The notes beneath the pieces were generated by a model, which was not told the origin of the DNA, did no database searches, and saw only the letters and a program-made list of their open reading frames with translations. DNA of 64,000 bases from an uncultured Candidatus Binatia bacterium (GTDB lineage: Bacteria; Desulfobacterota; Binatia; HRBIN30; JACQVA1), in contig CAZYMF010000004.1 in assembly GCA_964648215.1 (NCBI GenBank), positions 7,827 through 71,826 of the forward strand. Reading direction: 5' to 3'. The position numbers and the translations under genes were made by a program. Numbering within the stretch: position 1 is the stretch's first letter; every line of letters starts with the position of its first letter. Shown piece by piece: positions 3,730 to 35,014 of this stretch.

Positions 3730-4521
3730 ATGAAGGAACAGACGTATTACCGCGATCACTGGATCGAGGTCGCGCCCGAGCGCGTCGATGTCTACGAGGA
3801 GATGTTTCGCTGGCGGCCGCAGATGGAGCCGCTGCTCCTGCCCGCCGCTCTCGCCCCGGGGCAGCACGTCGTGGACTATGGCTGCGGCCCGGGGATGCTC
3901 GCCCTCGAGCTGGCGCGCCGGGTCGGCACGGCGGGACACGTCCACGGCGTCGACCTGAACGAGGTCTTCCTCGACCGGGCGCGGCAGCACGCCGCGGCGG
4001 AAGGCTTCGCCGACCGGGTCAGCTTTCATCGCATCGTCGAGGATCGGGTGCCGCTGGCCGACGCCTCGGTGGACCGGGTGATCTGCAAGAACGTGCTGGA
4101 GTACGTCGGCGACGTGACGGCGACGCTGTCCGACTTCCGCCGCGTGCTGCGGCCCGGCGGCCTGGTGCACGCCATCGACAGCGACTGGGGCATGCTCGCC
4201 GTCGAGCCGATCGGTCCCGAGCGTCTGGGCGAGCTCTTCCGGGCCGCCAGCATCGCCTATCGCACGCCGCTGATCGGCCGCAAGCTGTACGGTTTCATGC
4301 GCGCGGCCGGCTTTCGTGAAGTCAAGGTCAAGATCCTGGCGACGGCGGACACGCAGGGCTTCCTCGCCCCGGTGGTCTTGAACATGGCCACCTACGCGCG
4401 CGAGTCCGGCCGCCTCGAGCCGTCCTGGGTGGATGCGCTGCTGGAAGATCTGCAGCGGGCGATGGCCGACGGCACCTACCTGCTGGTGCTGCCGCAGTTT
4501 CTGGTCACGGGCGCCGCCTGA
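3730..4521 (+). CDS. Class I SAM-dependent methyltransferase
   Basis: SAM-binding motif I VVDYGCGPGMLALELARRVG, later DRVICKNVLEYV and LRPGGLV, typical of the Methyltransf_11/25 type. Confidence 0.85.
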   Translation: MKEQTYYRDHWIEVAPERVDVYEEMFRWRPQMEPLLLPAALAPGQHVVDYGCGPGMLALELARRVGTAGHVHGVDLNEVFLDRARQHAAAEGFADRVSFHRIVEDRVPLADASVDRVICKNVLEYVGDVTATLSDFRRVLRPGGLVHAIDSDWGMLAVEPIGPERLGELFRAASIAYRTPLIGRKLYGFMRAAGFREVKVKILATADTQGFLAPVVLNMATYARESGRLEPSWVDALLEDLQRAMADGTYLLVLPQFLVTGAA

Positions 4522-4546
4522 CCGGCGCGAGAGAGAGGAGGAGGCA

Positions 4547-4951
4547 ATGAAGCGGTTGTCGATCCTGATGGTTGTCGTGGGGGTGACGATGATTGCGTTC
4601 CTGCCGTTCGCCTTCTCGGTGTGGCCGGCGGGTTTCCAGTGGGGACACCCGGGAGGGCACCCGGCCTACGAGCGTATGATCGTCGCCATCTACGTGTCGC
4701 TCGGCATCTGCCTGATCCTCGGCGCCCGCGACCCGCTGCGCAACGTGATCATCATCGACTTCACGATCATCTCCAGCCTGCTCCACGGCGGGGTGATGAC
4801 CTACGATGCCATCGCGCAGCATCACGAGCTGACGCACCTCGTCGGCGACGTGCCCTTGCTGTTCGGTCTGGCGGCGCTGTTCCTCTATCTGCATCCGAAA
4901 CGGTTGGCGAAGATGCCGCCGCCCGCCGACGCCGGCTCCGGACCGCTCTGA
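4547..4951 (+). CDS. Small integral membrane protein, unknown function
   Basis: ATG at 4547 preceded by GGAGGAGG. MKRLSILMVVVGVTMIAFLPFAF plus three further hydrophobic segments. No motif recognised. Confidence 0.6.
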   Translation: MKRLSILMVVVGVTMIAFLPFAFSVWPAGFQWGHPGGHPAYERMIVAIYVSLGICLILGARDPLRNVIIIDFTIISSLLHGGVMTYDAIAQHHELTHLVGDVPLLFGLAALFLYLHPKRLAKMPPPADAGSGPL

Positions 4952-5021: not shown

Positions 5022-7904
5022 ATGGAGAAGCTGGCGCGCTGGGCGCTCGTGCTGCTGGCGATGGCGGTCGTGCTGTGGGTGCGCACGCGGCCGCTCGCCC
5101 TGCCGATCACCGACGATTGGGCCGATCAACTCCTGCGGCGGCAGCTCGCCTACCGTATCGTTCAGGACGATCGGCACCGGGGTCGCGCGGCATCTCCGGC
5201 GCAGGTGGAACGGGAGGTGCAGTCCTGGATCGACGACCATGCCGAGCGCTTCGACGCGCAGCGTGCGGCCGCGTCGGAGAGTCTGCGCTCGCGCCTGCGC
5301 CACGTCGGGCCCGACGGCCGCGAGCACGTATTCCTCGGCGACGTCGACAGCTACCAATGGCTGCGCGCCGCGCGCAATTATCTCGATCACGGCACCACCT
5401 GCGACGCCGTCGTCGACGGCGAGTGCCGCGACACCCTGGCCGACGCGCCGGTGGGCGCGCGCATGATCTACAACCGCTCGCTGCACATTGCCGCCATCGT
5501 CGCCGTGCACGAGGTGATCACCTTCTTCCATCCCGGCTATCCGCTGTCGTCGAGCTCGTTCTGGGTGCCCGTGCTCGTCGGGGTGCTCGGCGTGCTGCCC
5601 GCCTTCGGCCTCGGCTGGCGCCTGGGCGGCAACGCGGGCGGCTTTTGCGCCGCGCTGCTGGTGGGGCTCGACTCGTCGCTGTTGACGCGCAGCATCGGCA
5701 GCGACAACGACGTGTGGAACGTCGTCCTGCCCTTGTTCCTGTTCTGGGCCGCGGTCGAGGCGCTGGCGGCCGGGAACCGGTGGCGTCGGATCGGCTTCGC
5801 CGTTCTCGCCGGCGTGTTCGCCGGCCTGCACGCGGCGACGTGGCGCGGATGGATCTTCGGCTACGTCGTGTTGCTGGCCGGCCTTGCCGGGACGCTGCTG
5901 TTCCACGCTCTGCGCCTGGCGTGGCAGCGGTGGCGTGGCGTTGCCGGGGCGGCAACCGCGGTCCGCGACGTTGCCGTCGTGCTCGCCGTCTTCTACGTCA
6001 GCGCGGGGGTCTTCACCACGCTTGCCGGCGCGCCGCAGTCCTATCTCGACTTGCCGTTGCGCCTGCTGGGTGGCGGCGTCGCCGAGGCCGCCGCGCCGCC
6101 ACCCAGCGCGGTCGACCTGTGGCCGAGCGCGCTGGCCACCGTTGCCGAGCTGGTGACGCCGAATCTGGGCAACATCGCCGATAGCAAGGGAGGCAAGCTC
6201 GCGCTCTTCGGTGCTCTGCTCGGGCTGTTGCTGTTGCTGCAACCGGAGGCGTGGTGGCGCCGACGCGGTCCCTGGCGCGACGCCTACGCGTCTGTCCTGG
6301 TGGCTGGCGTTGCCGCGGACGCGGTGCTGCTGTTCGCGGCGCCGTCGACCCGGTTCGCCGTCCTGGCTCTGGTGGTGGCGCCTTTGCTCGCGACCGTGCT
6401 GCTGCGGCTGGTCGATCCTGACGCAGAGAGCGAGCGCGCCAACGCGGCGCTCCTGATCGCGGTGTGGTTCCTAGCCGCCTTCTCTCTCAGCTTCGGCGCC
6501 GTGCGCTTTCTACTGCTGCTCGGCCCGCCCTTCGGTCTCGTGCTCGGAGGAGCGGCCGGTCGTCTGCAACGAGCGATCGCATCGGGCGCGCGCCGGCCGG
6601 CCGTTGCCGGGGCCGCGGTGCTCGCCGCCACCCTTCCGTTCGTGCTGCCACCCCTCTGGGGCGGCTACCGCGTCGCGCGCGCCTACGTTCCCAAGATCAG
6701 CGATGCCTGGTGGGGCACGCTGACCAACATCCGTGATCACTCGGCGCCCGATGCCATCGTCGATGCGCTGTGGGACTACGGCTACTGGGTGAAGTACGTG
6801 GCGCAGCGCCGCGTCAGCTGCGACGGCGGCACGCTGTCGACGCACGTGCACCACTGGTTCGGTCGCGCGCTGGTGACGCCGAGCGAGACCGAGAGCATCG
6901 GCCTGCTGCGCATGCTCAACTGCGGCTCCGACGCCACGCCGCACCCGGAGGGAGCCGAGGGAGCGTACGGCAAGATCGTCGCCAAGCTGCACGACCCGAT
7001 CGCCGCCGCCGCGCTGGTGACCGAGCTCGCCAGCCTCGACGAGAACGCGGCGCGCGTGGCGCTGGCGGCAAAAGGCTTCACGGCCGCGGAGCAGGCAAAC
7101 GTGCTGCGCTCCACCCACTGCCGGCCGCCGGAGTCGTTTCTGCTTCTCACCACCGAGCAGCTCGCCACGGCGACGACGTGGATGCAGTTCGGCCGCTGGG
7201 ATCTTGCCAAGGCGTACGTGGCGCAGGTGGCGCCTTACACACCGCAGCAAGAGCTGGTGCCGGAGCTGAGGAAACGCTTCGGCTACAGCGAGGAGAAGGC
7301 AACTTCGCTCTACACGCAGGCGCGCCAACTGCGCTCGCGGAAGGAACGCGAGAACTTCGCCGGACCGTCGGCGTGGTATCTGACGACGCAATGGGTACCC
7401 TGCCGCAGCGAGGCCGGCGGCAAGATGGTCTGCCCGCTGGGAATGACGGACAAGCAGACGGGGGACGTCCTCGAGGCCTTCGTCTACGATCCGGCCGCGC
7501 CCGAGCGCAGCCGACTGCGGGTGCGGCACGCGCCCGGCGGCGCTCTCGCCGCCGGCGTCACGGAGGAAACCCCGGCGGCGCTGTTGCTGGCCGACGCCGG
7601 GGGCGAGCGGGGCGTCACCCTGGGGCCGGCGACCGTGGCCCGGTTCGGCGCCCTGGTCGACGTTCCGAATCACCGGGTGCTGGTCGGCAGCCCGTTTCTG
7701 CTGCGCTCCACCTTCGTGCAGTTGATGTATCTCGATGGCCGCTACGCTCACCGCTACCAGAAGTTCGACGAGCGCGTCGCCTACAACGGCGAGCGCATCG
7801 AGGTGTGGCGGGTGAGGTGGGGAGTCACGGATCGGACCGATCGGACCGATCCGACTGATCGGACGGATCGGTCCGATCGGTCCGATGCCCCGCCCCCCGG
7901 CTGA
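5022..7904 (+). CDS. STT3/PglB/AglB-family oligosaccharyltransferase (GT66-like), 960 aa
   Basis: Polytopic N-terminal half followed by a large soluble C-terminal domain. Motifs: GDVDSYQWLRAARNY (first acidic loop motif), RSIGSDNDVWNVVLPLF (second acidic motif), ALWDYGYWVKYVAQRRVSCDGGT (the WWDYG hallmark followed by a DGGK-like element), and a tail STFVQLMYLDGRY resembling the PglB C-terminus as I recall it. Confidence 0.85.
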   Translation: MEKLARWALVLLAMAVVLWVRTRPLALPITDDWADQLLRRQLAYRIVQDDRHRGRAASPAQVEREVQSWIDDHAERFDAQRAAASESLRSRLRHVGPDGREHVFLGDVDSYQWLRAARNYLDHGTTCDAVVDGECRDTLADAPVGARMIYNRSLHIAAIVAVHEVITFFHPGYPLSSSSFWVPVLVGVLGVLPAFGLGWRLGGNAGGFCAALLVGLDSSLLTRSIGSDNDVWNVVLPLFLFWAAVEALAAGNRWRRIGFAVLAGVFAGLHAATWRGWIFGYVVLLAGLAGTLLFHALRLAWQRWRGVAGAATAVRDVAVVLAVFYVSAGVFTTLAGAPQSYLDLPLRLLGGGVAEAAAPPPSAVDLWPSALATVAELVTPNLGNIADSKGGKLALFGALLGLLLLLQPEAWWRRRGPWRDAYASVLVAGVAADAVLLFAAPSTRFAVLALVVAPLLATVLLRLVDPDAESERANAALLIAVWFLAAFSLSFGAVRFLLLLGPPFGLVLGGAAGRLQRAIASGARRPAVAGAAVLAATLPFVLPPLWGGYRVARAYVPKISDAWWGTLTNIRDHSAPDAIVDALWDYGYWVKYVAQRRVSCDGGTLSTHVHHWFGRALVTPSETESIGLLRMLNCGSDATPHPEGAEGAYGKIVAKLHDPIAAAALVTELASLDENAARVALAAKGFTAAEQANVLRSTHCRPPESFLLLTTEQLATATTWMQFGRWDLAKAYVAQVAPYTPQQELVPELRKRFGYSEEKATSLYTQARQLRSRKERENFAGPSAWYLTTQWVPCRSEAGGKMVCPLGMTDKQTGDVLEAFVYDPAAPERSRLRVRHAPGGALAAGVTEETPAALLLADAGGERGVTLGPATVARFGALVDVPNHRVLVGSPFLLRSTFVQLMYLDGRYAHRYQKFDERVAYNGERIEVWRVRWGVTDRTDRTDPTDRTDRSDRSDAPPPG

Positions 7905-9036
7905 GGAGGGCTTCGCACTCGCCCACGATCCGTGCCGCGGCATCGACGGTTGCCCACTGCCGCAAGCGGCGCGAGGCGGCGGTCCAGCCGGCGGTGTCGC
8001 GCAGCAGCGAGACGAGGCGCGAGGCCAGCGCCTCCACCCGCCACTGCTCCTCGCGCACCCACCAGCCACCGGCCTCGTTGGCCCAGGTCGAAGCGTTCGG
8101 CGTCTGGTGGTCGTCGGCGGCCGACGGCAGCGGTACCAGCAGCGCCGGCAGACCGGCGACGGCGAGCTCGGCGATCGTCGCCGCGCCGGCACGGGCGAGG
8201 GCGAAGTCGGCCCAGCGATAGGCGCCGGCCATGTCGTCGAAGTATCGCTCCACCTGCGCCGCGATGCCCGCCCCGGCGTAGGCGGCAACGACGGGAGCCG
8301 GATCGTTCTCGCCGACCTGATGGCGGACCTCGACCGCGAGGCGACGAGCGGCCAGCTGCCGCGCGAGCTCGGGTGCCTGCCGGTTGAAGAAGCGCGCCCC
8401 CTGTGAGCCGCCGGTGATCAGGAGGTGCGCGGCTCTCTGCGACGGGTGCGGCGACTGGCGCGGCTCGTGGTACAGGGCGGCGATCTCCGGGCGCACCGGG
8501 TTCCCGGTGATGCGCCGGTGCGCCGCGGGGAGCTCGCGGCCGGCGGAGGCGAAGCCGAGGTAGACGCGATCGACGAGGCGGGCGAGCCACTTGTTGGTCA
8601 GCCCCGGCACCACGTTGGCCTCGTGGATCGCGCTGGGGATCCCGAGCAGGCGCGCCGCCAGCAGCGGGCCCGCCGAGGTGTAACCGCCGAAGCCGAGCAC
8701 GAGATGCGTCCCTTGCCGCCGGAACAGACGGCCCGCCTGGGCCGTTGCGGCGATCACGCCGGCGACGGCGCGCGCCTTTCCGGCCAGGCTCGCCCCGAAC
8801 AACGGTGCGCCCGCTACCTGCTCCAGCCGATAGCCGTGCCGCGGCACCAGGCGCGACTCGTATCCGGCGCGGGTACCGAGAAACAGCACGTCGACGTCCG
8901 GTCGGGCTTGGCGATAGGCGGCGGCGACGGCGAGGGCCGGGGAGACGTGCCCGGCGGTGCCGCCGCCGATCATGGCCACCCGCCGCGACGCGGCGGCCGC
9001 GGAAGAGGTGGGCTCGGGATCGGAGTGCGGCGGCAT
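7825..9036 (-). CDS. murG: MurG-like GT28 UDP-GlcNAc transferase (paralog-like context, outside any dcw cluster)
   Basis: This is the C-terminal 403 codons of the 813-aa track ORF. MIGGGTAGHVSPALAVAAAY, GFGGYTSAGPLLAARLLGIPSAIHEAN, LLITGGSQGA and ARAGAATIAELAVAGLPALLVPLP are classical MurG motifs. Start ATG at 9036 (or the inner ATG near 8973). The upstream part of the track ORF is antisense to the next gene. Confidence 0.85.
   Translation of the reverse strand: MPPHSDPEPTSSAAAASRRVAMIGGGTAGHVSPALAVAAAYRQARPDVDVLFLGTRAGYESRLVPRHGYRLEQVAGAPLFGASLAGKARAVAGVIAATAQAGRLFRRQGTHLVLGFGGYTSAGPLLAARLLGIPSAIHEANVVPGLTNKWLARLVDRVYLGFASAGRELPAAHRRITGNPVRPEIAALYHEPRQSPHPSQRAAHLLITGGSQGARFFNRQAPELARQLAARRLAVEVRHQVGENDPAPVVAAYAGAGIAAQVERYFDDMAGAYRWADFALARAGAATIAELAVAGLPALLVPLPSAADDHQTPNASTWANEAGGWWVREEQWRVEALASRLVSLLRDTAGWTAASRRLRQWATVDAAARIVGECEALLSRGAGHRTDRTDPSDQSDRSDRSDP
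7831..7886. repeat. 9-bp tandem repeat (ATCGGWCCG x6) forming a perfect long hairpin at convergent gene ends
   Basis: Units ATCGGACCG ATCGGACCG ATCCGACTG ATCGGACGG ATCGGTCCG ATCGGTCCG. Positions 7831-7851 are the exact reverse complement of 7866-7886 (21 bp), extendable by 2 bp inward. It lies inside both the STT3 ORF (stop 7902-7904) and the murG-like ORF (stop 7827-7825). Confidence 0.9.
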
Positions 9037-9150: not shown

Positions 9151-10224
9151 ATGTGGACTTACGGTCTCCTTTGCGGCACGGCGGCTGCGGTGGCGTTTCT
9201 CCTCACACCGGCGGTGCGCCTGCTGGCGTTGCATTTCGGCGCCGTCGACGAGCCCGGCGGCCGGCGGGCGCACCGCGGGCGGATCCCGCGCCTGGGCGGC
9301 CTGGCCGTGTTGGGTGCCGGCCTCCTCGGGCTGTTGTTGCCGTGGCTGGGCGGGGTGCCGGTGTTCGCCGCGCTGATCGCCCGCGGCTGGAGGCTGGGCT
9401 GGTTCTTGGCGGGAACGCTGCTGATCACCGCTGTCGGCGTTTTCGACGACTGCCGCGAGGCGACGCCGTGGCCCAAGCTCGCGTTCGAGACGCTGGCGGC
9501 GGTGGTCGCGGTCGCCGGCGGCTTCGGCTTCTCCGCCGTGTCGAATCCGTTCACCGGCGGCTCCATCGAGCTCGGCGCGCTGGGAGCCTTGCTCTCCGTG
9601 CTGTGGATCGTCGGCATCACCAACGCCTTCAACCTCATCGACGGACTGGACGGTCTGGCGGCCGGCGTTGCCCTGATCGCCGCGGCGACCATCTTCGTGC
9701 TCGCGGGGGTGCAGGCGCGCCCGGACGCGGCCGTGCTCACCGCCGTGCTCGCCGGCGCGCTGCTCGGCTTTCTGCGCTACAACTTTCATCCCGCCTCGAT
9801 CTTCCTTGGCGACTCCGGCAGCTTGTTGCTCGGCTACGTGCTCTCGGTGCTGTCCATCCAAGGGCAGCAAAAGGTCCCGACCGTCGTCGTCCTGCTGGTG
9901 CCGATCCTGGTGCTCGCCCTGCCGATCGTGGAGACCGTGGTCACCGTCGTGCGCCGCTACGGTCGCGAGGGCGCGGCGGGTCTCTTCCACGCCGATCGTG
10001 AGCACATCCACCACCGCCTGGTGATGCGGGGCATGGCGCCGCGGCGCGCGGTGTTGCTGCTCTACGGTATCTGCAGCGGCCTCGGCCTGCTGGCGGTGCT
10101 CGCCGTGGTCGCCGGCGGACCGGGCAGCGCGGTGCTCGTGCTGGTCGCCGCCCTCGCCGGCTATTTCGGGCTGCGCCGTCTGGGGTACGGCTTCGTGCGC
10201 GGCGGAACCCTGACCCATGACTGA
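9151..10224 (+). CDS. Polyprenyl-phosphate GlcNAc-1-phosphate transferase (WecA/MraY PNPT family)
   Basis: Starts at ATG 9151 (MWTYGLLCG). About 10 TM segments; VFDDCRE acidic motif; NAFNLIDGLDGLAAG; FLGDSGSLLLGY; HIHHRLV. Divergent from the murG-like gene. Confidence 0.85.
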   Translation: MWTYGLLCGTAAAVAFLLTPAVRLLALHFGAVDEPGGRRAHRGRIPRLGGLAVLGAGLLGLLLPWLGGVPVFAALIARGWRLGWFLAGTLLITAVGVFDDCREATPWPKLAFETLAAVVAVAGGFGFSAVSNPFTGGSIELGALGALLSVLWIVGITNAFNLIDGLDGLAAGVALIAAATIFVLAGVQARPDAAVLTAVLAGALLGFLRYNFHPASIFLGDSGSLLLGYVLSVLSIQGQQKVPTVVVLLVPILVLALPIVETVVTVVRRYGREGAAGLFHADREHIHHRLVMRGMAPRRAVLLLYGICSGLGLLAVLAVVAGGPGSAVLVLVAALAGYFGLRRLGYGFVRGGTLTHD

Positions 10225-10963
10225 AGCGTCACCCGGGCCCTCGTCGCCCACGGCGGGCTCGACCACACTGGTCCTGCTGTCCTACGACGAGCGCGAGGCC
10301 CTCGAGCGGCTCCTGCCGCTGATCCCCCTCCACCTCTTCGAGCGGGTCGTCGCCATCGACCCGGGCTCGACCGACGGCACGTTGGCTCTGTACGAGGCGC
10401 GCGGGATTCCGTGCGTGATTCAACCCGCGCGCGGGCGCGGCAATGCGTTCTTGCTGGCGGCGGAGATCGTCGACAGCGAGCGGGTGGTCTTCTTCAGCGC
10501 CGACGGCAACGAGAACCCGGAAGATCTGCCCCTGCTGCTCCGCTATCTCGACGAGGGCAACGACCTGGTCATCGGCGGCCGCTTCCTCCGCCCCGGATCG
10601 TGCAGCGACAACAGCGACGACCCCTGGCGGTTGCGCCGCGCCGGCTCGATCGGCTTCAGCCTGGTCGTCCGGCTGCTGTGGGGCTGCGACGTGTGGGACT
10701 CGTGCAACGGCTTTCGCGGCTTCCGCGTCGAGGCCATGCGGCGCCTGCGTCTGGACGCGCCGTTGCACGAGATCGAGCTGCAGAGCACCATCCGCGCCGC
10801 CAAGCTGGGCATGAAGATCAAGGAGTTCCCGACCCGCGAGCTGCGGCGGATGGGCGGCTGGCGCAAGCCGACCGCCGGGACCTGGACCCTGGGTTGGAGG
10901 ACGGCTCTCTATCTCGTGCGCGAGATCCTCATCGGCCGGCGCTTCGATGGCTCGCCGCGCTGA
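10217..10963 (+). CDS. Small GT2 glycosyltransferase, polyprenyl-phosphate sugar synthase-like (Dpm1/ArnC-like size and layout)
   Basis: LVLLSYDEREALERLLPLI, AIDPGSTDGT, FFSADGNENPEDLP, NGFRGFR. 248 aa and soluble. Its start overlaps the preceding stop by 8 nt and its end overlaps the next start. Confidence 0.75.
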   Translation: MTEASPGPSSPTAGSTTLVLLSYDEREALERLLPLIPLHLFERVVAIDPGSTDGTLALYEARGIPCVIQPARGRGNAFLLAAEIVDSERVVFFSADGNENPEDLPLLLRYLDEGNDLVIGGRFLRPGSCSDNSDDPWRLRRAGSIGFSLVVRLLWGCDVWDSCNGFRGFRVEAMRRLRLDAPLHEIELQSTIRAAKLGMKIKEFPTRELRRMGGWRKPTAGTWTLGWRTALYLVREILIGRRFDGSPR

Positions 10964-12422
10964 CCCCCCGGCCGCGCCCGCCGCCGTCCGCGGCTGGAAG
11001 CGGCACCTGCCCGTCCTGCTGCTGTGTCTGTTCTTCGTCGGGCTCTACGCCACGACGTTGCGGTCGCTGGGGATGCTGGGATGGGACGAGTCGGAGTACG
11101 CCTCGCTGGGCCGCTCGGTGCTGCGGGGCGAGGGATTCTCGATCAGCGGGCGGCCCAACTCGCTGCGCCCGCCGCTGCTGCCGCTGGCGGTGACGGCGAG
11201 CTTGCTGGTGACCGGCAGCGCCAGCGACGTCGCCGCGAAGCTGCCCAACCTCTCCTTCAGCGCGCTCGCCCTCCTGGTCGTCTACGCGGCGATGGCGCGC
11301 GAGCGGGACCGCCTCACCGCCTGGATCGCCACCGCCTTTCTCGGGCTGATGCCGACGTTCTGGCTCTTCACCCCCAGGTTGCTGACCGAGATTCCGTTCA
11401 TGGCGTTCTTCACCGCCGCGATCGCGTGCTTCTATTTCGGCCTCTACCGTGACGGGCGTTTCTTCTATGTCAGCTGGATCTCCGTCGCGCTGGCGTTGCT
11501 GAGCCGCTACACGGCGGTGCTGTTCGGGCCCATCGCGCTGGCTTTCACGCTGATGGCGCTTGCCGCCGCCGACGCCCGCCAACGGATCCGTGGGCGGCAC
11601 TTCTGGCTCTCCCCCTTCGCCGGCCTGGCGCTGTTGCTGCCCTGGCTGCTGCGCCAGCAGCTCGTCTTCGGCAGCGCCCTGGTCGGGTTTCAGCATGCCT
11701 CCGGGCAGCTGCAGGCGTACCTGCCGGGGGTCTCGATGCCGTGGTACTTCTACCCGGCCCACGTCCCGGGGATGGTCTCGCCGCTGCTGTGCGCGCCGTT
11801 GCTCGTCGGCATCGTCTGGGCGGTGCGGACGCGGGACCGCTTTGCCTTGCACTGCCTCTTCGTGGTCGGGTTCGTCTTGCTGTGGTTCAGCGCCTATCGC
11901 TTCAAGGAGATCCGCATGGCGACGTCGACGTTGCCCTTCCTGGCCATGGTGGCGGCGCTCGGTGTGACGCAGGTCGTTCTGCCGCGGCGGCTGACGGCAC
12001 CCGTGCTCGGCGGGGTCGCCGTCTTCCTGATCGGTGTCTTCGCCTTCTCCTTCGTCAGGACGCACCGATTCTTCTCGCGCGCGGTGACGCTCGGCTATCC
12101 CTCCTTCACCGAAGCGATGCGTGCGGTGCGCGAGCGCACGGCGCCCAACACCGTCCTGATGGGCGCCAGCGTGCCGCAGATCTTCTGGTACGCCGATCGT
12201 CACGTCGTCGATTTCCCCGACGAGAAGGATCTCCCCGGGGCCTTGCGGCGGTGCGACTGGGTGGTCGTGGTCAACTTCGAGCGCGGACAGAAGCCCTATG
12301 CGCGCCAGTTGCTGGCCAAGGTGACCCAGGAGGACGGTGCGCAAGGGAACGCGCTCGTCTCCCGCGATGTGCGTTTCACCACGGTGTTGATTCGCGCCTC
12401 GCTGTTGCGGGAGCGGTTGTAG
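10947..12422 (+). CDS. GT-C fold glycosyltransferase of ArnT/PMT (GT83/GT39) type
   Basis: 491 aa and polytopic. The first periplasmic loop carries LGWDESEYASLGRS (a DE-x-x-Y motif as in ArnT/PMT_2 proteins). The C-terminal soluble region is about 110 aa. Confidence 0.8.
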   Translation: MARRADPPAAPAAVRGWKRHLPVLLLCLFFVGLYATTLRSLGMLGWDESEYASLGRSVLRGEGFSISGRPNSLRPPLLPLAVTASLLVTGSASDVAAKLPNLSFSALALLVVYAAMARERDRLTAWIATAFLGLMPTFWLFTPRLLTEIPFMAFFTAAIACFYFGLYRDGRFFYVSWISVALALLSRYTAVLFGPIALAFTLMALAAADARQRIRGRHFWLSPFAGLALLLPWLLRQQLVFGSALVGFQHASGQLQAYLPGVSMPWYFYPAHVPGMVSPLLCAPLLVGIVWAVRTRDRFALHCLFVVGFVLLWFSAYRFKEIRMATSTLPFLAMVAALGVTQVVLPRRLTAPVLGGVAVFLIGVFAFSFVRTHRFFSRAVTLGYPSFTEAMRAVRERTAPNTVLMGASVPQIFWYADRHVVDFPDEKDLPGALRRCDWVVVVNFERGQKPYARQLLAKVTQEDGAQGNALVSRDVRFTTVLIRASLLRERL

Positions 12423-12443
12423 CCGGCCGCGGCGGTTCCCCTC

Positions 12444-13808
12444 TTGGCGGGGCTGTGCCATAAACCAACGCGATCGCGGAGACGTCCCCGGCATGGCGAT
12501 GACGAAAATCCTGGCGGCGGCCGCGCGGGTTTGAGCGACTTGCCGCGACCGCAGCGAGTGGCCGTCGTCGTGCTCGGTGATCTCGGGCGCAGCCCGCGGA
12601 TGCAGTACCACGCGCAGGCGCTGGCCGGCGCCGGCGTCGAGGTGGATCTGATCGGCTACGAGGGCAGCGAGCTGCCGCGCGAACTGCGCGAGAGCCCGCG
12701 CCTGCGCTGTCATTTGCTGCGCGCGAGCCGGCCGGCGCCGCGCCGGCCGCGGCTGCTCTTCGTCGCCGGCTCCGCCCTGCGCGTGCTGCGGCAATGCGGC
12801 CAACTGCTGTGGGTGCTGCTGTTTCGCATCGACCGACCCAACGTCGTCGTGGTGCAGAATCCGCCGGCGGTGCCGACGCTGTTGCTGGCCGTGCTGGCGG
12901 CGCGGGTGCGCCGGGCCAAGCTGGTGGTCGATTGGCACAATTTCGGGTACGCGATGCTCGCTCTGTCGCTCGACCCGCATCATCCGCTCGTTCGCGTCGC
13001 GCGCTGGTACGAGCGCCGTCTGGCGCGCTTTGCCGACGCGCACCTGTGCGTGTCGCGGGCGATGCAGGCGACGATGCGAACGCAGTGGGGCGTCGCGGCG
13101 GCGGTGCTCTACGATCGACCCGCGGCGCGCTTTCAAGCGGCGTCGGCCGAGGCGCGGCGGGAGCTGCGGCAACGGCTCGCAGAGGCGGTTCCCGAAATGG
13201 TCGTCGCCCGGCCGCCGGCCATCGTCGTCAGCCCGACGAGCTGGACGGCGGACGAGGACTTCGATCTCTTGCTCGACGCCGTTCAACGCTGCGACCGCTT
13301 GCTGTCCGAGCCCGCGCCAGGGTCCGAGCCGGAGCGCGTGGCGCTCCTCGTTCTTCTCACCGGCCGGGGCCCGCTGCGCGCGGCTTACGAGGAACGGATG
13401 CGCCGGATGCCGCTGCGACGGATTCGCCTGCGCGCGCTGTGGCTGAGCCCGCCGGACTATCCGCTGCTGCTGGCGGCCGCCGATCTCGGCCTCTGCCTCC
13501 ACCGCTCGGCCGCGGGAGTAGATCTGCCGATGAAGGTCAGCGACATGTTCGGCGCCGGCTTGCCCGTGTGCGCGTTCGACTACGGGCCCTGTCTCGCCGA
13601 GCTGGTGCACGCGGGCGAAAACGGGCTGCTGTTTTCCTCGGCCGAAGAGCTGGCGCGGCAGCTTTGCCGAGTCGCGGGCGAGCTTCCCGGCGGTGCGTCG
13701 TGGCTGGAGCGGTTGCGGGAGAACGTCCTTGCGCACCGCCAGACGTGGGAGGAAGGTTGGCAGCGGGAGGCCTGGCCGGTGCTCTCCCGGCTGCTGGGGG
13801 CCGAGTAG
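12444..13808 (+). CDS. ALG1-like beta-1,4-mannosyltransferase (GT33)
   Basis: Segment-by-segment resemblance to yeast Alg1 as I recall it: VLGDLGRSPRMQYHA, VQNPPAVPTL, VVDWHNFGY, VLYDRPAARFQ, VSPTSWTADEDFDLLLDA, LTGRGPL, LWLSPPDYPLLLAAADLGLCLHRSAAGVDLPMKVSDMFGAGLPVCA. The true start is uncertain; in-frame TTG 12531, TTG 12540 and GTG 12558 are alternatives. Confidence 0.85.
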   Translation: MAGLCHKPTRSRRRPRHGDDENPGGGRAGLSDLPRPQRVAVVVLGDLGRSPRMQYHAQALAGAGVEVDLIGYEGSELPRELRESPRLRCHLLRASRPAPRRPRLLFVAGSALRVLRQCGQLLWVLLFRIDRPNVVVVQNPPAVPTLLLAVLAARVRRAKLVVDWHNFGYAMLALSLDPHHPLVRVARWYERRLARFADAHLCVSRAMQATMRTQWGVAAAVLYDRPAARFQAASAEARRELRQRLAEAVPEMVVARPPAIVVSPTSWTADEDFDLLLDAVQRCDRLLSEPAPGSEPERVALLVLLTGRGPLRAAYEERMRRMPLRRIRLRALWLSPPDYPLLLAAADLGLCLHRSAAGVDLPMKVSDMFGAGLPVCAFDYGPCLAELVHAGENGLLFSSAEELARQLCRVAGELPGGASWLERLRENVLAHRQTWEEGWQREAWPVLSRLLGAE

Positions 13809-13844
13809 GATTCGACCCGGTCGCCCCACCTTGGTAGAGCTGGC

Positions 13845-15089
13845 ATGGGAAATGGTTCCGAAAGGCAGCGCTTGAAGATCGCCATCCTTCATCCCGACCT
13901 CGGCATCGGCGGCGCCGAGCGGCTGATCGTCGATGCCGCCGTGCAGCTCCAGGCTGCCGGACACCGGGTCACGATCTTCACCAATCACCACGACCCGGCG
14001 CACTGCTTCGCGCCCACCGCCGACGGCACCCTGGAGGTGCGAGTCTTCGGCGCGTCTCTCCCGAGCCACGTCGCGCAGCATCTGCGCGCGCCCTGTGCCG
14101 TGACGAGGATGCTCTACCTCTGCGGGGCGGCGGCCCGCCACGGCCCGTTCGACGTCTTCCTCTGCGACCTGGTGGCGCACGTGATCCCGGCGCTCAAGTG
14201 GCTCGCCCGGACCCCGGTCGTCTTCTACTGTCACTTTCCCGATCAGTTGCTGGTCACGCGCGATCGGTGGCCGTATCGCCTCTATCGCCTGCCCATCGAT
14301 CGTCTCGAGCAATGGGCCACGGGGCACGCCGATCGCGTCCTGGTCAACAGCCGCTTCACCGCGGCGATGTTTGGGAAGGCGTTTCCCCGTTTGCACTGGC
14401 TCACTCCCGACGTTCTCTATCCCGCCACCGGCGACGTCGACGGCTGCGTCGAAACGACCCCGGGGGACGAGCCCATGTTGCTGGCGATCGGGCGCTATGA
14501 TCGTTCCAAGAAGATGGTTCTCGCCGTCGAAGCCCTGGCGCACTTGCGCCAATGCCTGCCCGCGCCCGCGGCGGACAAGGTGCGCCTGGTGATCGCCGGT
14601 CACTACGACGCCGGCTCTCGCGAGAACGTGCTGGCGATGCGGGAGCTGGAGTCGGCCGTGCGCGCCTTCGGGCTGCAGGAGCAGGTGACGCTGCGGCGCT
14701 CGCTGTCGGATGCGGAGCGCATCGATCTCCTGGAGCGCTGCTCGTGCCTCGTCCACACCATGCCCAACGAGCACTTCGGCCTGGTTCCCGTCGAGGCGAT
14801 GGCCGCGGGCAGACCGGTGGTCGCGGTGCGCCGGGGCGGGGTGATGGAGACGGTGCGCCACGGCGAGACGGGCCTGCTGTGCGAGCCCAACCCGGAGGCT
14901 TTTGCCGCGGCCCTGGCGCGCTTGCTGCGCGATCGCGACGAGGCCGCGCGCATGGGGCGGGCGGCGCGGCTGCGTGCTCGGACGCTCTTTTCCCGCGCCG
15001 CCTTCGGCGAGCGTCTCGACGCCATCGTTCGCGAGGTGGCGGCCAAGAAGGCCGGCGCCGAGAGGGGAGCGGCGTGCTCGGCAGCCTGA
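13845..15089 (+). CDS. ALG2-like alpha-1,3/1,6-mannosyltransferase (GT4)
   Basis: [82 protein letters not shown] and [19 protein letters not shown] match the Alg2 pattern ([21 protein letters not shown] ... [10 protein letters not shown]) from memory. Confidence 0.85.
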   Translation: [414 protein letters not shown]

Positions 15090-16921
15090 AGAAATGCCTC
15101 CGCTTTCTCAGCCCCAGCGACCGCTGGCGCTGGGCGAGCTTGATCCCGCTGATCGTCGTGGCCGCCGCGATGGAGGCCGTCGGCGCCGCGGGCGTGTTCC
15201 TGCTCATCAAGCTCACCGCCGATCCGTCGCAGGTGTCCTCGGTGCCGGTCATCTCCGGTCTCTACGCGCGGCTGCCGTGGCACGGCGACAAGGCGATCAT
15301 TCTCGAAGCCACGTTTCTGATCGCGTCGTACTACCTGCTGAAGAACGCCTCGCTGGCCCTGATCTCGGCGCGGCAGAACAGGGTCGTCGGCGAATCGGTG
15401 GCGCGGCTGGGGCGCGAGATGCTGAAGGGCTACCTCGCGGTGCCTTTCGCCTTCCACCTGCGGCGCAACTCCGCCGATCTGATCCGCAACGCAACCGACT
15501 CGGTCGACCGCGTGTTCCGGTTCGTCCTGGCATCGATCGTGGCCGGGTGCGCCGAGGCTCTGATCGTCCTCGGCATCATCGTCGTGCTGCTGACGACGGC
15601 GCCTGGGCTGGCGCTCACCGCGGTGGTCATCCTGTTCGCGCTGCTGGCCGGTGTCATCCGCGGCACGCGACGGGTTCTGCTGCAATGGGGGCGCGAGGAT
15701 CAGCGGTTGCGGGGAGCGGCGCTGCAGACCCTGCAGCAGGCGCTGGCGGGCGTGAAGGAGGTGAAGCTCCGCGGCTGCGAGCCCTTCTACTTCGAGCGTT
15801 TCTGGGCGCAGGAGGACGATCTGGCGCGGGCGCGCGCGCGCTACGACACGTTGTCGATGGCCTCGCGGCTGCTGATCGAGGCGGTCTTCGTGTGTGGCCT
15901 GCTGCTGGTGATCACCCTGGTGACCCTGCGGGGGCGGGGCCCGGACCTCGTCCCGTTGCTCGGCCTCTACGCCTACGCGGGTTTTCGCATCATTCCCTCG
16001 CTCAATCGGATTCTCATGTACGTCAGCAGCATTCGCTACGGCGCCGGCGCCGTCGAGCCGCTCTACGAGGACTGGCAGATGTTCCTTCGCCTGCCGCCGC
16101 CACCGGAGGCCGTCTCCGCGCGTGCCGTGACCTTCGCCGACCGGCTGGTTCTCGACGGCGTGTCGTATCAGTACGAGGGGGCGTCGGCTGCCGCGCTGGA
16201 GAACGTCTCGCTGGCGATTCGACCCGGCGAATCGATCGGGATCGTCGGCCCGACGGGAGCCGGGAAGAGCACCCTGATCGACGTCGTGCTCGGGTTGCTG
16301 GTCCCCTCGCGGGGGCGGGTCACGGCCGACGGCGTGAACATCTTCGAGGCGCTGGCGGCGTGGCAACGGAAGATCGGCTATGTCCCCCAAACGGTGCATC
16401 TGACCGATGATACCCTGCGCCGCAACATTGCCTTCGGCATCGAGGACGACGGGATCGACGACGACAAGATCCGGCGGGCGCTGCGCATGGCGCAGCTGGA
16501 GGATGTCGTCGGCTCTCTTGCCCTCGGGCTGGAGACCACGATCGGTGAGCGCGGCGTGCGCCTGTCCGGCGGCGAGCGCCAGCGGGTTGCGATCGCCCGC
16601 GCCCTCTACCTGCAGCCCGAGGTGCTGGTGTTCGACGAGGCGACGTCGGCATTGGATGCGCAAACCGAGCGCGAGCTGACGCAGGCGATCGAAGCGCTGC
16701 AGGGGCAGAAGACGCTGATCATCGTGGCGCACCGCCTGAGCACGGTGCGGCGCTGCGACCGGCTGGTCTTTCTGCGACAGGGTCGCGTGGCCGACGTCGG
16801 CTCGTTCGACGAGCTGCTCGGGCGCAACGCCGCCTTCCGCGCGATGGCGGCGCCGAGCGGCGACGAGGGAATCGCGGCGATGCCGCCGCCGCTCGGTGCC
16901 GGCCGCAAAGCGACCGGGTAG
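15074..16921 (+). CDS. ABC transporter, fused permease/ATPase (MsbA/PglK-type exporter), candidate lipid-linked oligosaccharide flippase
   Basis: GTG 15074 (VLGSLKKCL) overlaps the ALG2-like stop by 16 nt. Six-TM exporter domain, then Walker [10 protein letters not shown], signature LSGGERQR and Walker [13 protein letters not shown]. The track ORF start at 14552 is an upstream extension across the previous gene. Confidence 0.85.
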
Positions 16922-22870: not shown

Positions 22871-22941
22871 GCACCGTTACCACGCGCCGCTCGGCAAGAC
22901 ACGTTCGGGCCGCGCGGATCTGTGCTAAGGGGAGCGCGCCG

Positions 22942-24048: not shown

Positions 24049-24204
24049 CCAGGAGCACGCCGAGCATCCGCTGGCGTTCGAGGCAGCGGGACCAAGCGAT
24101 AGATCGGCCCGCGGCGCTCGAGACGGAAATGCCGGCGAATGCCGTCGACGTCGTAGCAGCTCCATTTCCCCTGACGCGACGAATCGCCTAGAACCCGCGC
24201 ACCG

Positions 24205-26370: not shown

Positions 26371-26522
26371 CGTGGCCGTCTCTTATAGGCCGATGGAGTC
26401 GGCGAAGGTAGAGGCGGCCGCGGTCGGTCGAACGACTCCCGCGTCCCTGGCGATGAGCGCCGCACCCTCCGTCCCGCGGGGTTGACGCCCGCCGCGACAA
26501 CTGACAGGACGACCCTCGGGTC

Positions 26523-34928: not shown

Positions 34929-35014
34929 AGCGCGGCCGTCGTCGCGATGTCCAAGGGCCGGCGCGCGGTGCGACTTGGACGCCGGCCGCGCGACTGTGCT
35001 ACGGGAAGCCGCCC

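What the first reader, a model, noticed from the sequence alone, without database searches (positions are those of the whole stretch)
5022..7904. STT3 homologue with a variant WWDYG motif (LWDYG) and a PglB-like tail
The motifs are seen directly in the translation:
- GDVDSYQWLRAARNY
- IGSDNDVWNVVLPLF
- ALWDYGYWVKYVAQRRVSCDGGTLSTHVHHWF
- STFVQLMYLDGRY...IEVWRV near the C-terminus

The first Trp of WWDYG is replaced by Leu, and DGGK reads DGGT. As I recall, these positions sit next to the +2 Ser/Thr recognition site in PglB structures. The acceptor sequon could therefore differ from D/E-x-N-x-S/T or N-x-S/T. At 960 aa the protein is considerably longer than Campylobacter PglB as I recall it.
Basis: partly seen in the sequence, partly recalled or inferred. 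Interest (0 to 1): 0.65.

Follow-up and report, generated by a model that had tools for sequence, protein, structure and literature searches.

The report
Bacterial STT3 transferase beside ALG-like genes
This gene encodes a real member of the enzyme family that attaches sugar chains to protein asparagines, its odd LWDYG motif is a private quirk of this lineage, and the more interesting point is that it sits beside bacterial look-alikes of the enzymes that build the core of the eukaryotic N-glycan.

Summary
ORF 5022-7904 (+) encodes a 960-aa protein with every quoted motif. It is a genuine STT3-family (GT66) oligosaccharyltransferase homologue: it passes Pfam's STT3 cut-off (E 9.5e-27), the AlphaFold model is confident (pLDDT 91), and its 19 best PDB fold matches are all OSTs, PglB first. 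Profile alignment to verified PglB places D228/D230, T373-x-x-E376, R495 and L583-WDYG on the catalytic and sequon-binding residues.

- LWDYG is private to this lineage. The family consensus is WWDYG, and relatives show L, M or WS.
- DGGT and the ~900-aa length are family norms, not peculiarities.
- A changed sequon cannot be inferred from these data.

The protein belongs to a large, uncultured, apparently undescribed clade (731 clusters at E<=1e-30) in Binatia, 'Deltaproteobacteria', Verrucomicrobiia and others. It fails the NCBIfam PglB and archaeal-STT3 models.

The gene lies in a conserved cluster:
- a MurG paralogue, in the Alg13/14 role;
- a WecA/Alg7-like transferase;
- ALG1-like and ALG2-like mannosyltransferases;
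- a Dpm1-like GT2 and a second GT-C;
- an ABC exporter.

A 2025 preprint showed that bacterial ALG1/ALG2 homologues from these taxa make Man3GlcNAc2-PP-lipid, but it never mentions STT3. The likely function is N-glycosylation with a eukaryote-type core. This has not been tested.

The parts
5022..7904 (+). STT3-family (GT66) oligosaccharyltransferase homologue, 960 aa. Motifs: DXD-1 at D107-V-D109; DXD-2 at D228-N-D230; TIXE-type T373-V-A-E376; R495; L583-W-D-Y-G587; D601-G-G-T-L-S-T-H608; strand 705-710 followed by a kinked helix 712-724 (the putative DK/MI site); PglB-like tail 895-933. Conserved Cys pairs: C127/C135, C634/C700, C794/C804.
6768..6782 (+). Codons for L583-W-D-Y-G587, the variant WWDYG motif. 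The Leu codon is CTG.
7830..7886 (.). 9-bp tandem repeat GATCGGACC x6.3 in the overlap of the convergent STT3 and GT28 genes. It encodes the low-complexity (T/S)DR tails of both ORFs. Model pLDDT is below 50 for residues 938-960.
7825..9036 (-). GT28 MurG paralogue, convergent with STT3. Proposed Alg13/14-equivalent that adds the second GlcNAc to give chitobiosyl-PP-lipid. The start codon is inferred.
9151..10224 (+). Polyprenyl-phosphate HexNAc-1-phosphate transferase of the WecA/MraY/Alg7 family (PF00953). Proposed initiating enzyme. The start codon is inferred and matches the 357-aa orthologue in L081.
10217..10963 (+). GT2, Dpm1/AglJ-like polyprenyl-phosphate hexose synthase.
10947..12422 (+). 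Second GT-C membrane glycosyltransferase. It hits Pfam PMT_2, plus a weak Alg9-like hit below cut-off. It could act on the periplasmic side using the GT2's product. It is not part of the conserved core.
12444..13808 (+). ALG1-like beta-1,4-mannosyltransferase homologue. The exact start is uncertain: the NCBI call, P0129, starts at M53.
   Evidence: bioRxiv 10.1101/2025.10.15.682550
13845..15089 (+). ALG2-like alpha-1,3/1,6-mannosyltransferase homologue. It carries GIGGAER (residues 20-26) and the EX7E motif EHFGLVPVE.
15074..16921 (+). ABC exporter (TM domain plus ATPase). Candidate PglK/MsbA-type flippase for the lipid-linked oligosaccharide.

Best explanation
The ORF encodes a catalytically competent single-subunit oligosaccharyltransferase. 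It belongs to a distinct, large and mostly uncultured bacterial clade of the STT3/AglB/PglB (GT66) family.

Proposed pathway:
1. On the cytoplasmic face, the neighbouring genes build a lipid-linked oligosaccharide on a polyprenyl (probably undecaprenyl) pyrophosphate.
2. The WecA/Alg7-like enzyme adds HexNAc-1-P.
3. The MurG paralogue adds a second GlcNAc, the role Alg13/14 plays in eukaryotes.
4. The ALG1-like enzyme adds a beta-1,4-mannose.
5. [quoted passage not shown]
6. The ABC exporter flips the product to the periplasmic face.
7. The Dpm1-like GT2 and the second GT-C may extend it there.
8. The STT3 protein transfers the glycan en bloc to Asn side chains of exported proteins. It would use the usual metal-dependent site (D107/D109, D228/D230, E376, R495) and a Ser/Thr-reading pocket formed by L583-W-D and the kinked helix 712-724.

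Shown here: family membership, fold, positional equivalence of the catalytic residues, and conserved gene linkage.

Inferred: the enzyme's activity, the identity of the glycan, the lipid carrier, the acceptor sequon and the flippase role.

The Trp-to-Leu change is most likely a tolerated hydrophobic replacement that at most weakens or tunes +2 Ser/Thr recognition.
For: Family and fold:
- Pfam STT3 E=9.5e-27 and STT3-PglB_core E=1.7e-5, both above cut-off.
- AF2 model with mean pLDDT 91 and pTM 0.90.
- The 19 best Foldseek hits in PDB are all OSTs, with PglB aligned full-length at TM 0.62-0.67 normalised to the target.

Catalytic equivalence:
- Family profile against PDB: PglB 1e-8, AfAglB 4e-8, yeast Stt3 5e-7.
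- hhalign to verified 3RCE_A maps DXD-2, TIXE-E, R375 and WWDYG.
- D109, D228, D230, E376 and R495 are invariant in 51 sequences.
- The same motif set persists in relatives at 23-29% identity.
- Three conserved Cys pairs lie in the predicted periplasmic parts.
- EL5 is the only internal low-confidence loop, as expected for a flexible OST loop.

Gene context:
- STT3, GT28, the WecA-like gene, the ALG1-like gene and, less often, the ALG2-like gene are syntenic in L001, L003, L007 and L008, which come from different phyla.
- The same linkage appears in L081, L082 and L083.
- At least 15 contig lengths are shared between the STT3 hit list and the ALG1-like hit list.
- JGI names the ALG1-like homologues 'beta-1,4-mannosyltransferase'.
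- The ALG2-like protein has both signatures defined in bioRxiv 10.1101/2025.10.15.682550.
- That preprint shows bacterial ALG1/ALG2 homologues from Binatia, Polyangia, Gammaproteobacteria and Deltaproteobacteria make M1GN2 and M3GN2 on a PP-lipid and complement yeast.
- The GT2's only PDB match is Dol-P-Man synthase.
- The ABC exporter is confirmed.

The Leu is real and stable: P0002 carries the same residue.
Against: - No biochemical data exist for any member of this STT3 clade.
- W457S alone inactivates C. jejuni PglB (PMC3527161), so L583 could impair function.
- Neither a canonical DK nor a canonical MI motif is recognisable. DGGK is replaced by DGGT.
- The D56-equivalent and C-tail alignments are not significant on their own (E 0.2-0.3).
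- The GT28 passes NCBIfam's murG equivalog cut-off (266 against 250 bits), so it could simply be MurG.
- The sugar specificity of the WecA-like enzyme is unknown.
- The GT2 + GT-C pair is not conserved across the clade and could serve another pathway.
- The 71% relative's locus (L081) lacks the ALG1/ALG2 genes within 10 kb.
- The comparison with yeast Alg1/Alg2 used sequences recalled from memory.
Confidence: 0.6

Rival explanations
1. One reading: the Trp-to-Leu change, together with DGGT, re-tunes acceptor recognition, so this enzyme glycosylates a sequon other than N-x-S/T or D/E-x-N-x-S/T.
For: - The first Trp of WWDYG helps form the +2 Ser/Thr pocket (PMC8342417).
- W457S inactivates CjPglB (PMC3527161).
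- The putative pocket partner on the kinked helix is also non-canonical: T716 stands where PglB has Ile and STT3 has Lys, by a motif-level alignment only.
- The position aligned to PglB R331, which reads the -2 acidic residue, is not conserved and is S388 here. A -2 Asp/Glu requirement is therefore unlikely.
Against: - L583 is confined to this lineage. 44 of 51 family members have W, and near relatives have L, M or WS. This looks like relaxed constraint or a conservative hydrophobic swap rather than a designed new specificity.
- W584, D585, Y586 and G587 are intact.
- DGG[S/T] is family-wide, and published work links that motif to donor (LLO) binding, not to the sequon (PMC8342417).
- No structural measurement was possible.
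Confidence: 0.15
2. The protein is a decaying or non-catalytic STT3 paralogue, and L583 marks loss of function.
For: - CjPglB W457S is inactive.
- Several family members carry clearly damaging variants, such as WWPYG and GWPYG.
- The C-terminus runs into a tandem repeat.
Against: - All metal- and substrate-binding residues that are invariant in the family are intact.
- The ORF is full-length, with normal GC3.
- The gene sits in an intact, syntenic biosynthetic cluster.
- Among the eight first-position variants in the 120 homologues, five are hydrophobic (two F, one each of L, M and Y) and three are not (G, A, N).
Confidence: 0.1
3. The enzyme transfers the lipid-linked glycan to something other than protein asparagine, such as a lipid, a cell-wall polymer or a hydroxyl acceptor. 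On this reading the cluster makes an envelope glycoconjugate.
For: - GT-C enzymes with this fold act on many kinds of acceptor (ArnT, AftA and DPY19 appear as weaker fold hits).
- The window carries a second glycan locus with a Wzy_C/TPR protein.
- No glycoprotein evidence exists for these taxa.
Against: - The peptide-reading elements are conserved across the clade out to 23% identity. These are the TIXE strand, WWDYG and the kinked helix.
- Every characterised member of GT66 is an Asn-directed OST (established knowledge; PMC8342417).
Confidence: 0.12

Closest known systems
PglB of Campylobacter (single-subunit bacterial N-OST; PDB 3RCE, 5OGL, 6GXC)
   Same: - Best fold match, aligned full-length.
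- Single-subunit bacterial enzyme.
- Equivalent D-x-D, TIxE-Glu, Arg375 and WWDYG positions.
- DGG- start of the DGGK motif.
- Similar extreme C-terminal segment.
- An ABC exporter in the cluster, like PglK.
   Different: - About 11-12% identity.
- Fails the NCBIfam PglB equivalog, 12.5 against 1300 bits.
- About 250 aa longer, with a helical EL1 insertion (about residues 27-92), a Cys-bridged hairpin (124-137) and helical insertions in the periplasmic domain (about 634-700 and 728-780).
- No M-x-x-I motif and no K in DGGK.
- No conserved R331 equivalent.
- The neighbouring genes are ALG-like, not pgl (bacillosamine) genes.
Archaeal AglB (e.g. A. fulgidus AglB-L, 3WAJ/7E9S) and long STT3 homologues of DPANN and Methanosarcinales MAGs
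   Same: - Profile E=4e-8 to AfAglB, covering the TM domain.
- TVAEL resembles AglB's TIAEV.
- Full-length relatives at 26-37% identity in archaeal MAGs share every motif and the same tail.
   Different: - Fails TIGR04154 archaeo_STT3, 20 against 450 bits.
- The archaeal relatives have no GT28, ALG1-like or ALG2-like neighbours.
- The MAG assignments were not verified.
Eukaryotic STT3 with the ALG7, ALG13/14, ALG1 and ALG2 steps of the dolichol pathway
   Same: - The cluster has one homologue or analogue for each cytosolic step up to Man3GlcNAc2, followed by an STT3.
- T604 and T607-H608 echo DNNTWNNTH of STT3 (PMC8342417).
- The ALG2 signatures GIGGAER and EHFGxVPxE are present.
   Different: - The STT3 itself is no closer to eukaryotic STT3 (5e-7) than to PglB (1e-8).
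- No DK motif.
- Single subunit.
- A fused MurG-type GT28 instead of the split Alg13/Alg14.
- The carrier is presumably undecaprenol.
- An ABC flippase rather than an Rft1-type candidate.
Bacterial ALG1/ALG2 homologues of Xu et al. 2025 (bioRxiv 10.1101/2025.10.15.682550)
   Same: - Same taxa (Binatia, 'Deltaproteobacteria') and the same protein families as window genes 12444-13808 and 13845-15089.
- Their activities (M1GN2 and M3GN2 on PP-lipid) give the probable donor for this STT3.
   Different: - The preprint does not mention STT3, gene clusters or synteny.
- The window's proteins are 50-68% identical to the homologues retrieved here. They are not known to be among the proteins the preprint assayed.

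Membership tests
STT3/AglB/PglB oligosaccharyltransferases (GT66; Pfam PF02516 + PF21436) | Passes the curated family HMM thresholds | tested here: met
   PF02516 scores 95 bits against a 24.5 cut-off, and PF21436 scores 25.8 against 23.
STT3/AglB/PglB oligosaccharyltransferases (GT66) | GT-C fold: an N-terminal multi-spanning TM domain plus a C-terminal periplasmic globular domain, closest to solved OSTs | tested here: met
   AF2 pLDDT 91. The top 19 Foldseek hits are all OSTs. Non-OST GT-C enzymes score 3e-5 or weaker, against 5e-15 for the best OST.
STT3/AglB/PglB oligosaccharyltransferases (GT66) | First DXD/acidic motif in EL1 (PglB D56) | tested here: inconclusive
   D107-V-D109-S-Y...A117-R118 matches PglB D56-G-Y...A64-R65 residue for residue, and D109 is invariant. 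However, the sub-profile alignment has E=0.24, and no superposition was possible.
STT3/AglB/PglB oligosaccharyltransferases (GT66) | Second DXD motif (PglB D154/D156) | tested here: met
   D228-N-D230 aligns to D154-T-D156 in HMMER and hhalign. It is invariant.
STT3/AglB/PglB oligosaccharyltransferases (GT66) | TIXE/SVSE motif in EL5 (PglB E319) and the conserved Arg (PglB R375) | tested here: met
   T373-V-A-E376 aligns to T316-I-M-E319, and R495 aligns to R375. E376 and R495 are invariant.
STT3/AglB/PglB oligosaccharyltransferases (GT66) | WWDYG motif | tested here: not met
   The query has LWDYG: the first Trp is Leu, and the other four residues are present. The family consensus is WWDYG, found in about 100 of the 120 homologues (88 by the first pattern, and about a dozen more on the relaxed rescan).
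STT3/AglB/PglB oligosaccharyltransferases (GT66) | DGGK or DNXTZNX[T/S] motif | tested here: not met
   The query has D601-G-G-T-L-S-T-H. The family has DGG[S/T]LxTH. It matches neither published form and looks like a hybrid (PMC8342417).
STT3/AglB/PglB oligosaccharyltransferases (GT66) | DK (DxxKxxxM/I) or MI (MxxIxxxI/V/W) motif on a kinked helix facing WWDYG | tested here: inconclusive
   A strand (705-710) followed by a helix broken at residue 716 (712-715, 717-724) fits the kinked helix. The query reads E-Q-L-A-T-A-T-T-W. Distant relatives read [DE]-M-[VI]-x-K-x-x-x-W. The register is not verifiable without coordinates.
STT3/AglB/PglB oligosaccharyltransferases (GT66) | Transfers a lipid-PP-linked glycan to Asn of N-x-S/T | not testable with these tools
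   This needs an enzyme assay or glycoproteomics.
PglB proper (NCBIfam NF050801 equivalog) | Scores above the equivalog cut-off | tested here: not met
   12.5 bits against a 1300 cut-off.
Archaeosortase-associated archaeal STT3 (TIGR04154) | Scores above the subfamily cut-off | tested here: not met
   20.1 bits against a 450 cut-off.
ALG2-type mannosyltransferase (neighbour 13845-15089) | N-terminal G-rich loop G-I-G-G-A-E-R, and an EX7E motif E-H-F-G-I-V-P-L-E with the Val retained (bioRxiv 10.1101/2025.10.15.682550) | tested here: met
   GIGGAER is an exact match, and EHFGLVPVE keeps the Val.
ALG1-type beta-1,4-mannosyltransferase (neighbour 12444-13808) | Full-length homology to ALG1, distinct from other GT-B enzymes | tested here: inconclusive
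   Many homologues are named 'beta-1,4-mannosyltransferase' by JGI. The protein is 32% identical over 416 aa to yeast Alg1 as recalled from memory, and the match is specific. No verified eukaryotic ALG1 sequence or curated model was available.
MurG (TIGR01133 equivalog; neighbour 7825-9036) | Scores above the equivalog cut-off | tested here: met
   266.5 bits against a 250.25 cut-off. Whether it acts on lipid I or on GlcNAc-PP-lipid is not testable here. It is linked to STT3 in seven other loci: L001, L003, L007, L008, L081, L082 and L083.

The most novel reading that the evidence does not exclude
A widespread group of uncultured bacteria (Binatia, 'Deltaproteobacteria', Verrucomicrobiia, Acidobacteriota and others) natively N-glycosylates exported proteins with a eukaryote-type GlcNAc2-Man3 core. 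They would do this with one conserved gene cluster: an Alg7-like enzyme, a MurG-type Alg13/14 analogue, ALG1, ALG2, an ABC flippase and a long single-subunit STT3. This would be the first bacterial N-glycosylation system built on a chitobiose-oligomannose core. It would also give the recently reported bacterial ALG1/ALG2 enzymes a biological purpose.
Probability: 0.4. Interest if true: 0.85.

Novelty: new variant of a known kind. Interest (0 to 1): 0.6.

Why it matters
The STT3 enzyme family is well known. Characterised bacterial N-glycosylation, however, is essentially the Campylobacter/Desulfovibrio PglB type, which uses non-eukaryotic glycans.

An STT3 clade genetically coupled to working ALG1/ALG2-type enzymes would matter in three ways:

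1. It would explain why bacteria carry enzymes that build the eukaryotic trimannosyl-chitobiose core.
2. [quoted passage not shown] The preprint argues this for ALG1/ALG2 without knowing their bacterial context.
3. It would offer glyco-engineers a natural single-subunit bacterial transferase likely adapted to chitobiose-core donors. From my own knowledge, not checked here, PglB handles such donors poorly.

The LWDYG variant is a minor, testable natural experiment on the role of the first Trp.

Tried and rejected
- **Direct sequence search against PDB** gave only the WWDYG region (E about 0.01). I replaced it with a family profile.
- **No reference OST sequences were available.** I submitted C. 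lari PglB from memory, and the tool printed the true 3RCE_A sequence, which I used from then on.
- **Sub-profile hhalign of the N-terminal and C-terminal regions alone** was not significant (E 0.24 and 0.30). I keep those equivalences at motif level only.
- **Model coordinates are not exposed**. I could not measure the metal-site geometry, the Ser/Thr pocket or the DK/MI position.
- **Provenance and taxonomy of the window:**
  - exact look-ups of the STT3 and of P0129 found nothing on record;
  - cluster members carry no organism names;
  - the best species representative in GTDB is only 42% identical.
  - The host taxon therefore remains unknown. It is a 70%-GC bacterium, and the nearest named relatives are Binatia and 'Deltaproteobacteria' MAGs.
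- **ALG1 and ALG2 are absent from PDB**, and the second GT-C has no PDB sequence match.
- **Six literature searches** found no description of this STT3 clade or of an STT3 + ALG1/ALG2 cluster in bacteria. A seventh located the WWDYG mutagenesis and motif-scheme papers cited above. The library lacks most subscription journals, so absence is weak evidence.
- **Considered and rejected:**
  - a sequencing error at L583 (P0002 has the same residue);
  - a non-OST GT-C enzyme;
  - a true PglB orthologue.
- **Not run:** a third whole-database protein search to fetch verified eukaryotic ALG1, because of its cost.


Full report
**1. Observation**

The ORF at 5022-7904 (+) is open and encodes 960 aa. 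Its third-position GC of 0.88 is typical of the real genes in this 70%-GC window.

The Leu of LWDYG is codon CTG at 6768-6770. An independent metagenome protein that is 97% identical (P0002) has the same ALWDYG, so it is not an error.

**2. What the protein is**

- It passes both curated Pfam models for the family: STT3 at E=9.5e-27 and STT3-PglB_core at E=1.7e-5.
- It fails the NCBIfam equivalogs for PglB (12.5 against 1300 bits) and for archaeosortase-type archaeal STT3 (20 against 450 bits).
- An AlphaFold2 model built on a 51-sequence alignment is very confident: mean pLDDT 91, pTM 0.90. The only poorly defined parts are a loop at 352-361 (within EL5) and the last 23 residues.
- In Foldseek against PDB, the 19 best hits are all oligosaccharyltransferases:
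  - PglB at 5e-15 to 4e-13, aligned full-length with TM 0.62-0.67 normalised to the target;
  - then human STT3A/B, yeast Stt3 and A. fulgidus AglB.
- Other GT-C enzymes are far weaker: DPY19 at 3e-5, ArnT at 5e-5, AftA at 1e-4 and ALG3/9/12 at about 1e-2.

**3. Positional equivalence of catalytic residues**

No reference sequences were on hand. I submitted C. lari PglB as I remembered it, and the PDB search printed the true 3RCE_A sequence, which I used from then on.

hhalign of the family profile against it (probability 92.5, E 4.8e-7), together with the HMMER profile search of PDB, gives these equivalences:

| Query | PglB | Role |
|---|---|---|
| D228-N-D230 | D154-T-D156 | second DXD motif |
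| T373-V-A-E376 | T316-I-M-E319 | TIXE motif |
| R495 | R375 | conserved Arg |
| L583-W-D-Y-G | W457-W-D-Y-G | WWDYG motif |
| D601-G-G-T | DGGK | DGGK motif |

D109, D228, D230, E376 and R495 are invariant in the 51-sequence alignment.

The first acidic site matches at motif level. Query D107-V-D109-S-Y-x5-A117-R118 lines up with PglB D56-G-Y-x5-A64-R65. Taken alone, that alignment is not significant (E 0.24).

**4. The variant motif in context**

- The family consensus is TWWDYGYW...RRVSxDGG[S/T]LxTH.
- At the first Trp position, 44 of 51 sequences have W, and only the query has L.
- The nearest relatives read LWDYG (97% identity), MWDYG (71%) and WSDYG (51%).
- Among 120 homologues, about 100 have WWDYG (88 by the first pattern and about a dozen more on the relaxed rescan).
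- Each of positions 1, 3 and 4 varies in a few percent of members. Position 1 shows two F and one each of M, L, G, A, N and Y.
- Five members have D to P, which is probably inactivating.
- LWDYG is therefore a private, stable substitution of one sub-lineage.

Experimentally, W457S alone inactivates C. jejuni PglB (PMC3527161, Table 2). Nothing is known for a hydrophobic replacement.

DGGT is the family norm (S in 36 and T in 14 of 51). In the published motif scheme, DGGK occurs in PglB and euryarchaeal AglB, and DNXTZNX[T/S] occurs in STT3 and Asgard/TACK AglB. The motif is presumed to bind the donor (PMC8342417). DGG[S/T]LxTH looks like a hybrid of the two forms.

The DK/MI motif could not be classified:
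- A strand (705-710) followed by a helix broken at residue 716 fits the 'kinked helix opposite WWDYG' (PMC3527161).
- The query reads E-Q-L-A-T-A-T-T-W there.
- Distant relatives read [DE]-M-[VI]-x-K-x-x-x-W.

The residue aligned with PglB R331, which in my recollection reads the -2 Asp/Glu, is not conserved. A -2 acidic requirement is unlikely. This part of the alignment has low confidence.

**5. Why it is long**

Relative to the 712-aa PglB, the model shows:
- a helical insertion in the first external loop (about residues 27-92);
- a hairpin with a conserved Cys pair (C127/C135);
- helical insertions in the periplasmic domain (about 634-700 and 728-780), with invariant C634/C700 and C794/C804;
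- a 25-residue low-complexity tail.

Lengths of 870-990 aa are normal for the family.

The tail is encoded by a 9-bp tandem repeat, GATCGGACC x6.3 at 7830-7886. The repeat lies in the 80-bp overlap with the convergent GT28 gene, and both strands read it as (T/S)DR. It is shorter in P0002 and absent in P0001, so it is probably not functional protein.

It is conserved out to relatives at 23% identity.

**6. The family**

- The word-indexed search found more than 150 homologues, nearly all from metagenomes. Where they are named at all, the names are 'STT3 domain-containing protein' or similar.
- The exhaustive search of 50%-identity representatives found 731 at E<=1e-30 and 1317 at E<=1e-10.
- Named sources include Candidatus Binatia and Binataceae, 'Deltaproteobacteria bacterium RIFCSPLOWO2_12_FULL_60_19', Verrucomicrobiia, Bryobacteraceae, Acidoferrales and Solirubrobacteraceae.
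- Full-length relatives at 23-37% identity occur in MAGs labelled Woesearchaeota, Nanoarchaeota, Methanosarcinales and Planctomycetes. They share all the motifs.
- The window's own organism could not be identified.

**7. Genomic context, the main added finding**

The neighbouring genes are listed below.

| Coordinates | Strand | Gene | Evidence |
|---|---|---|---|
| 7825-9036 | - | GT28 MurG paralogue, convergent with STT3 | E 1e-54 to solved MurG; passes the murG equivalog |
| 9151-10224 | + | WecA/MraY/Alg7-family transferase | |
| 10217-10963 | + | GT2; only PDB match is archaeal Dol-P-Man synthase | |
| 10947-12422 | + | second GT-C | |
| 12444-13808 | + | ALG1-like GT-B | JGI calls many homologues 'beta-1,4-mannosyltransferase' |
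| 13845-15089 | + | ALG2-like GT-B | exact GIGGAER and EHFGLVPVE |
| 15074-16921 | + | ABC exporter | |

The six plus-strand genes from 9151 to 16921 form a tightly packed run.

Yeast Alg1 and Alg2, as I recall them, match only their respective window genes:
- Alg1: 32% over 416 aa, E 1e-73.
- Alg2: 35% over 440 aa, E 8e-76.

Those yeast sequences are unverified, so I treat this as a lead.

The linkage is conserved:
- STT3, GT28 and the ALG1-like gene, often with the WecA-like and ALG2-like genes, are syntenic in L001, L003, L007 and L008.
- L081, the 71% relative, shares the window's gene order from DUF3604 through the second GT-C.
- L082 has GT28 and STT3 in tandem, 6 bp apart.
- L083 has STT3, GT28, GT2, two GT4 genes and an ABC transporter.
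- At least 15 contig lengths recur in both the STT3 and the ALG1-like hit lists.
- The archaeal and Planctomycete relatives lack these neighbours.

**8. Link to published work**

Xu et al. (bioRxiv 10.1101/2025.10.15.682550) studied bacterial ALG1 and ALG2 homologues from Gammaproteobacteria, Polyangia, Binatia, Deltaproteobacteria and Methylomirabilota.
- ALG1 homologues from Gammaproteobacteria, Polyangia and Binatia were active: they complemented yeast alg1 and made Man-GlcNAc2-PP-lipid in vitro.
- ALG2 homologues from Gammaproteobacteria and Polyangia complemented yeast alg2 and made Man3GlcNAc2-PP-lipid.
- The Deltaproteobacteria ALG2 homologue was weakly active in vitro only.

The preprint argues for a bacterial origin of these steps. 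It contains no mention of STT3, gene clusters or synteny.

Lombard 2016 (PMC4973528) treats the bacterial OST only in passing in its Stt3/AglB/PglB phylogeny (one mention of PglB, in the Fig. 6 legend).

Six literature searches found no description of this STT3 clade or of its coupling to ALG-like genes; a seventh only retrieved the WWDYG motif papers. The library lacks most subscription journals, so this is weak evidence of novelty.

**9. Mechanism proposed**

1. The cytoplasmic enzymes assemble HexNAc-PP-lipid, then chitobiosyl-PP-lipid, then Man1-3GlcNAc2-PP-lipid.
2. The ABC exporter flips the product.
3. The periplasmic side may extend it through the Dpm1-like GT2 and the second GT-C.
4. 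The STT3 enzyme transfers the glycan en bloc to Asn.

Shown here: homology, fold, residue equivalence and conserved linkage.

Inferred: the activity, the donor structure, the carrier lipid, the flippase role and the N-x-S/T sequon.

**10. Rivals and probabilities**

| Explanation | Probability |
|---|---|
| Main explanation | 0.6 |
| L583 re-tunes the sequon | 0.15 |
| Non-protein or non-Asn acceptor | 0.12 |
| L583 marks a decaying enzyme | 0.1 |

**11. Verdict**

The finding as written is correct but ordinary. It is a variant motif in an STT3 homologue, and the variant is lineage-private.

What lifts it is the context. This is a large, uncharacterised bacterial STT3 clade, genetically coupled to enzymes that have been shown to build the eukaryotic trimannosyl-chitobiose core.

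- Novelty: new variant of a known kind.
- Interest: 0.6.

Noticed in passing
window 7830-7886: A 9-bp near-palindromic tandem repeat (GATCGGACC x6.3) lies exactly in the 80-bp overlap of the convergent STT3 and GT28 ORFs. Both strands translate it as (T/S)DR repeats. It occurs nowhere else in the window, and its copy number differs in the 97% relative.
   Followed up: partly
window 15074-16921 (+): My GC3 filter missed an ABC exporter (TM domain plus ATPase). It directly follows the ALG2-like gene and overlaps its stop codon. The same arrangement occurs in L083. It is a candidate PglK/MsbA-type flippase.
   Followed up: partly
window 21698-29528: A second glycan locus: two GT-B glycosyltransferases, a second WecA/MraY-family transferase (25330-26370, -) and a 1001-aa Wzy_C (O-antigen-ligase-like) protein fused to TPR repeats (26523-29528).
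   Followed up: no
window 12444-13808; P0129: The 100%-identical NCBI protein (402 aa) starts at Met53 of this ORF. That start would cut off the conserved N-terminal VAVVVLGDLGRSPR segment seen in ALG1 homologues, so the public start codon is probably called too far downstream.
   Followed up: partly
P0012, P0100, P0104, P0105, P0111 (homologues): These family members have Pro in place of the Asp of WWDYG (WWPYG or GWPYG). The Asp is essential in PglB, so these may be non-catalytic or functionally diverged paralogues.
   Followed up: no
L002 10001-12844; also L006, L010, L011: MAGs labelled Woesearchaeota, Nanoarchaeota and Methanosarcinales carry full-length homologues (26-37% identity) with the same motifs and tail, but without the GT28/ALG1/ALG2 neighbours. 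This could be inter-domain transfer or misbinning.
   Followed up: partly
window 3730-4951 and L081 8632-9864: A SAM-dependent methyltransferase and a small DUF6632 membrane protein lie immediately upstream of STT3 on the same strand. The arrangement is conserved in the 71% relative. Any role in the pathway is unknown.
   Followed up: no
window 32526-36448: A PlsB-type glycerol-3-phosphate acyltransferase (800 aa, - strand) lies divergent from a HAD-acyltransferase fusion (477 aa, + strand). This is a lipid-metabolism pair unrelated to the finding.
   Followed up: no
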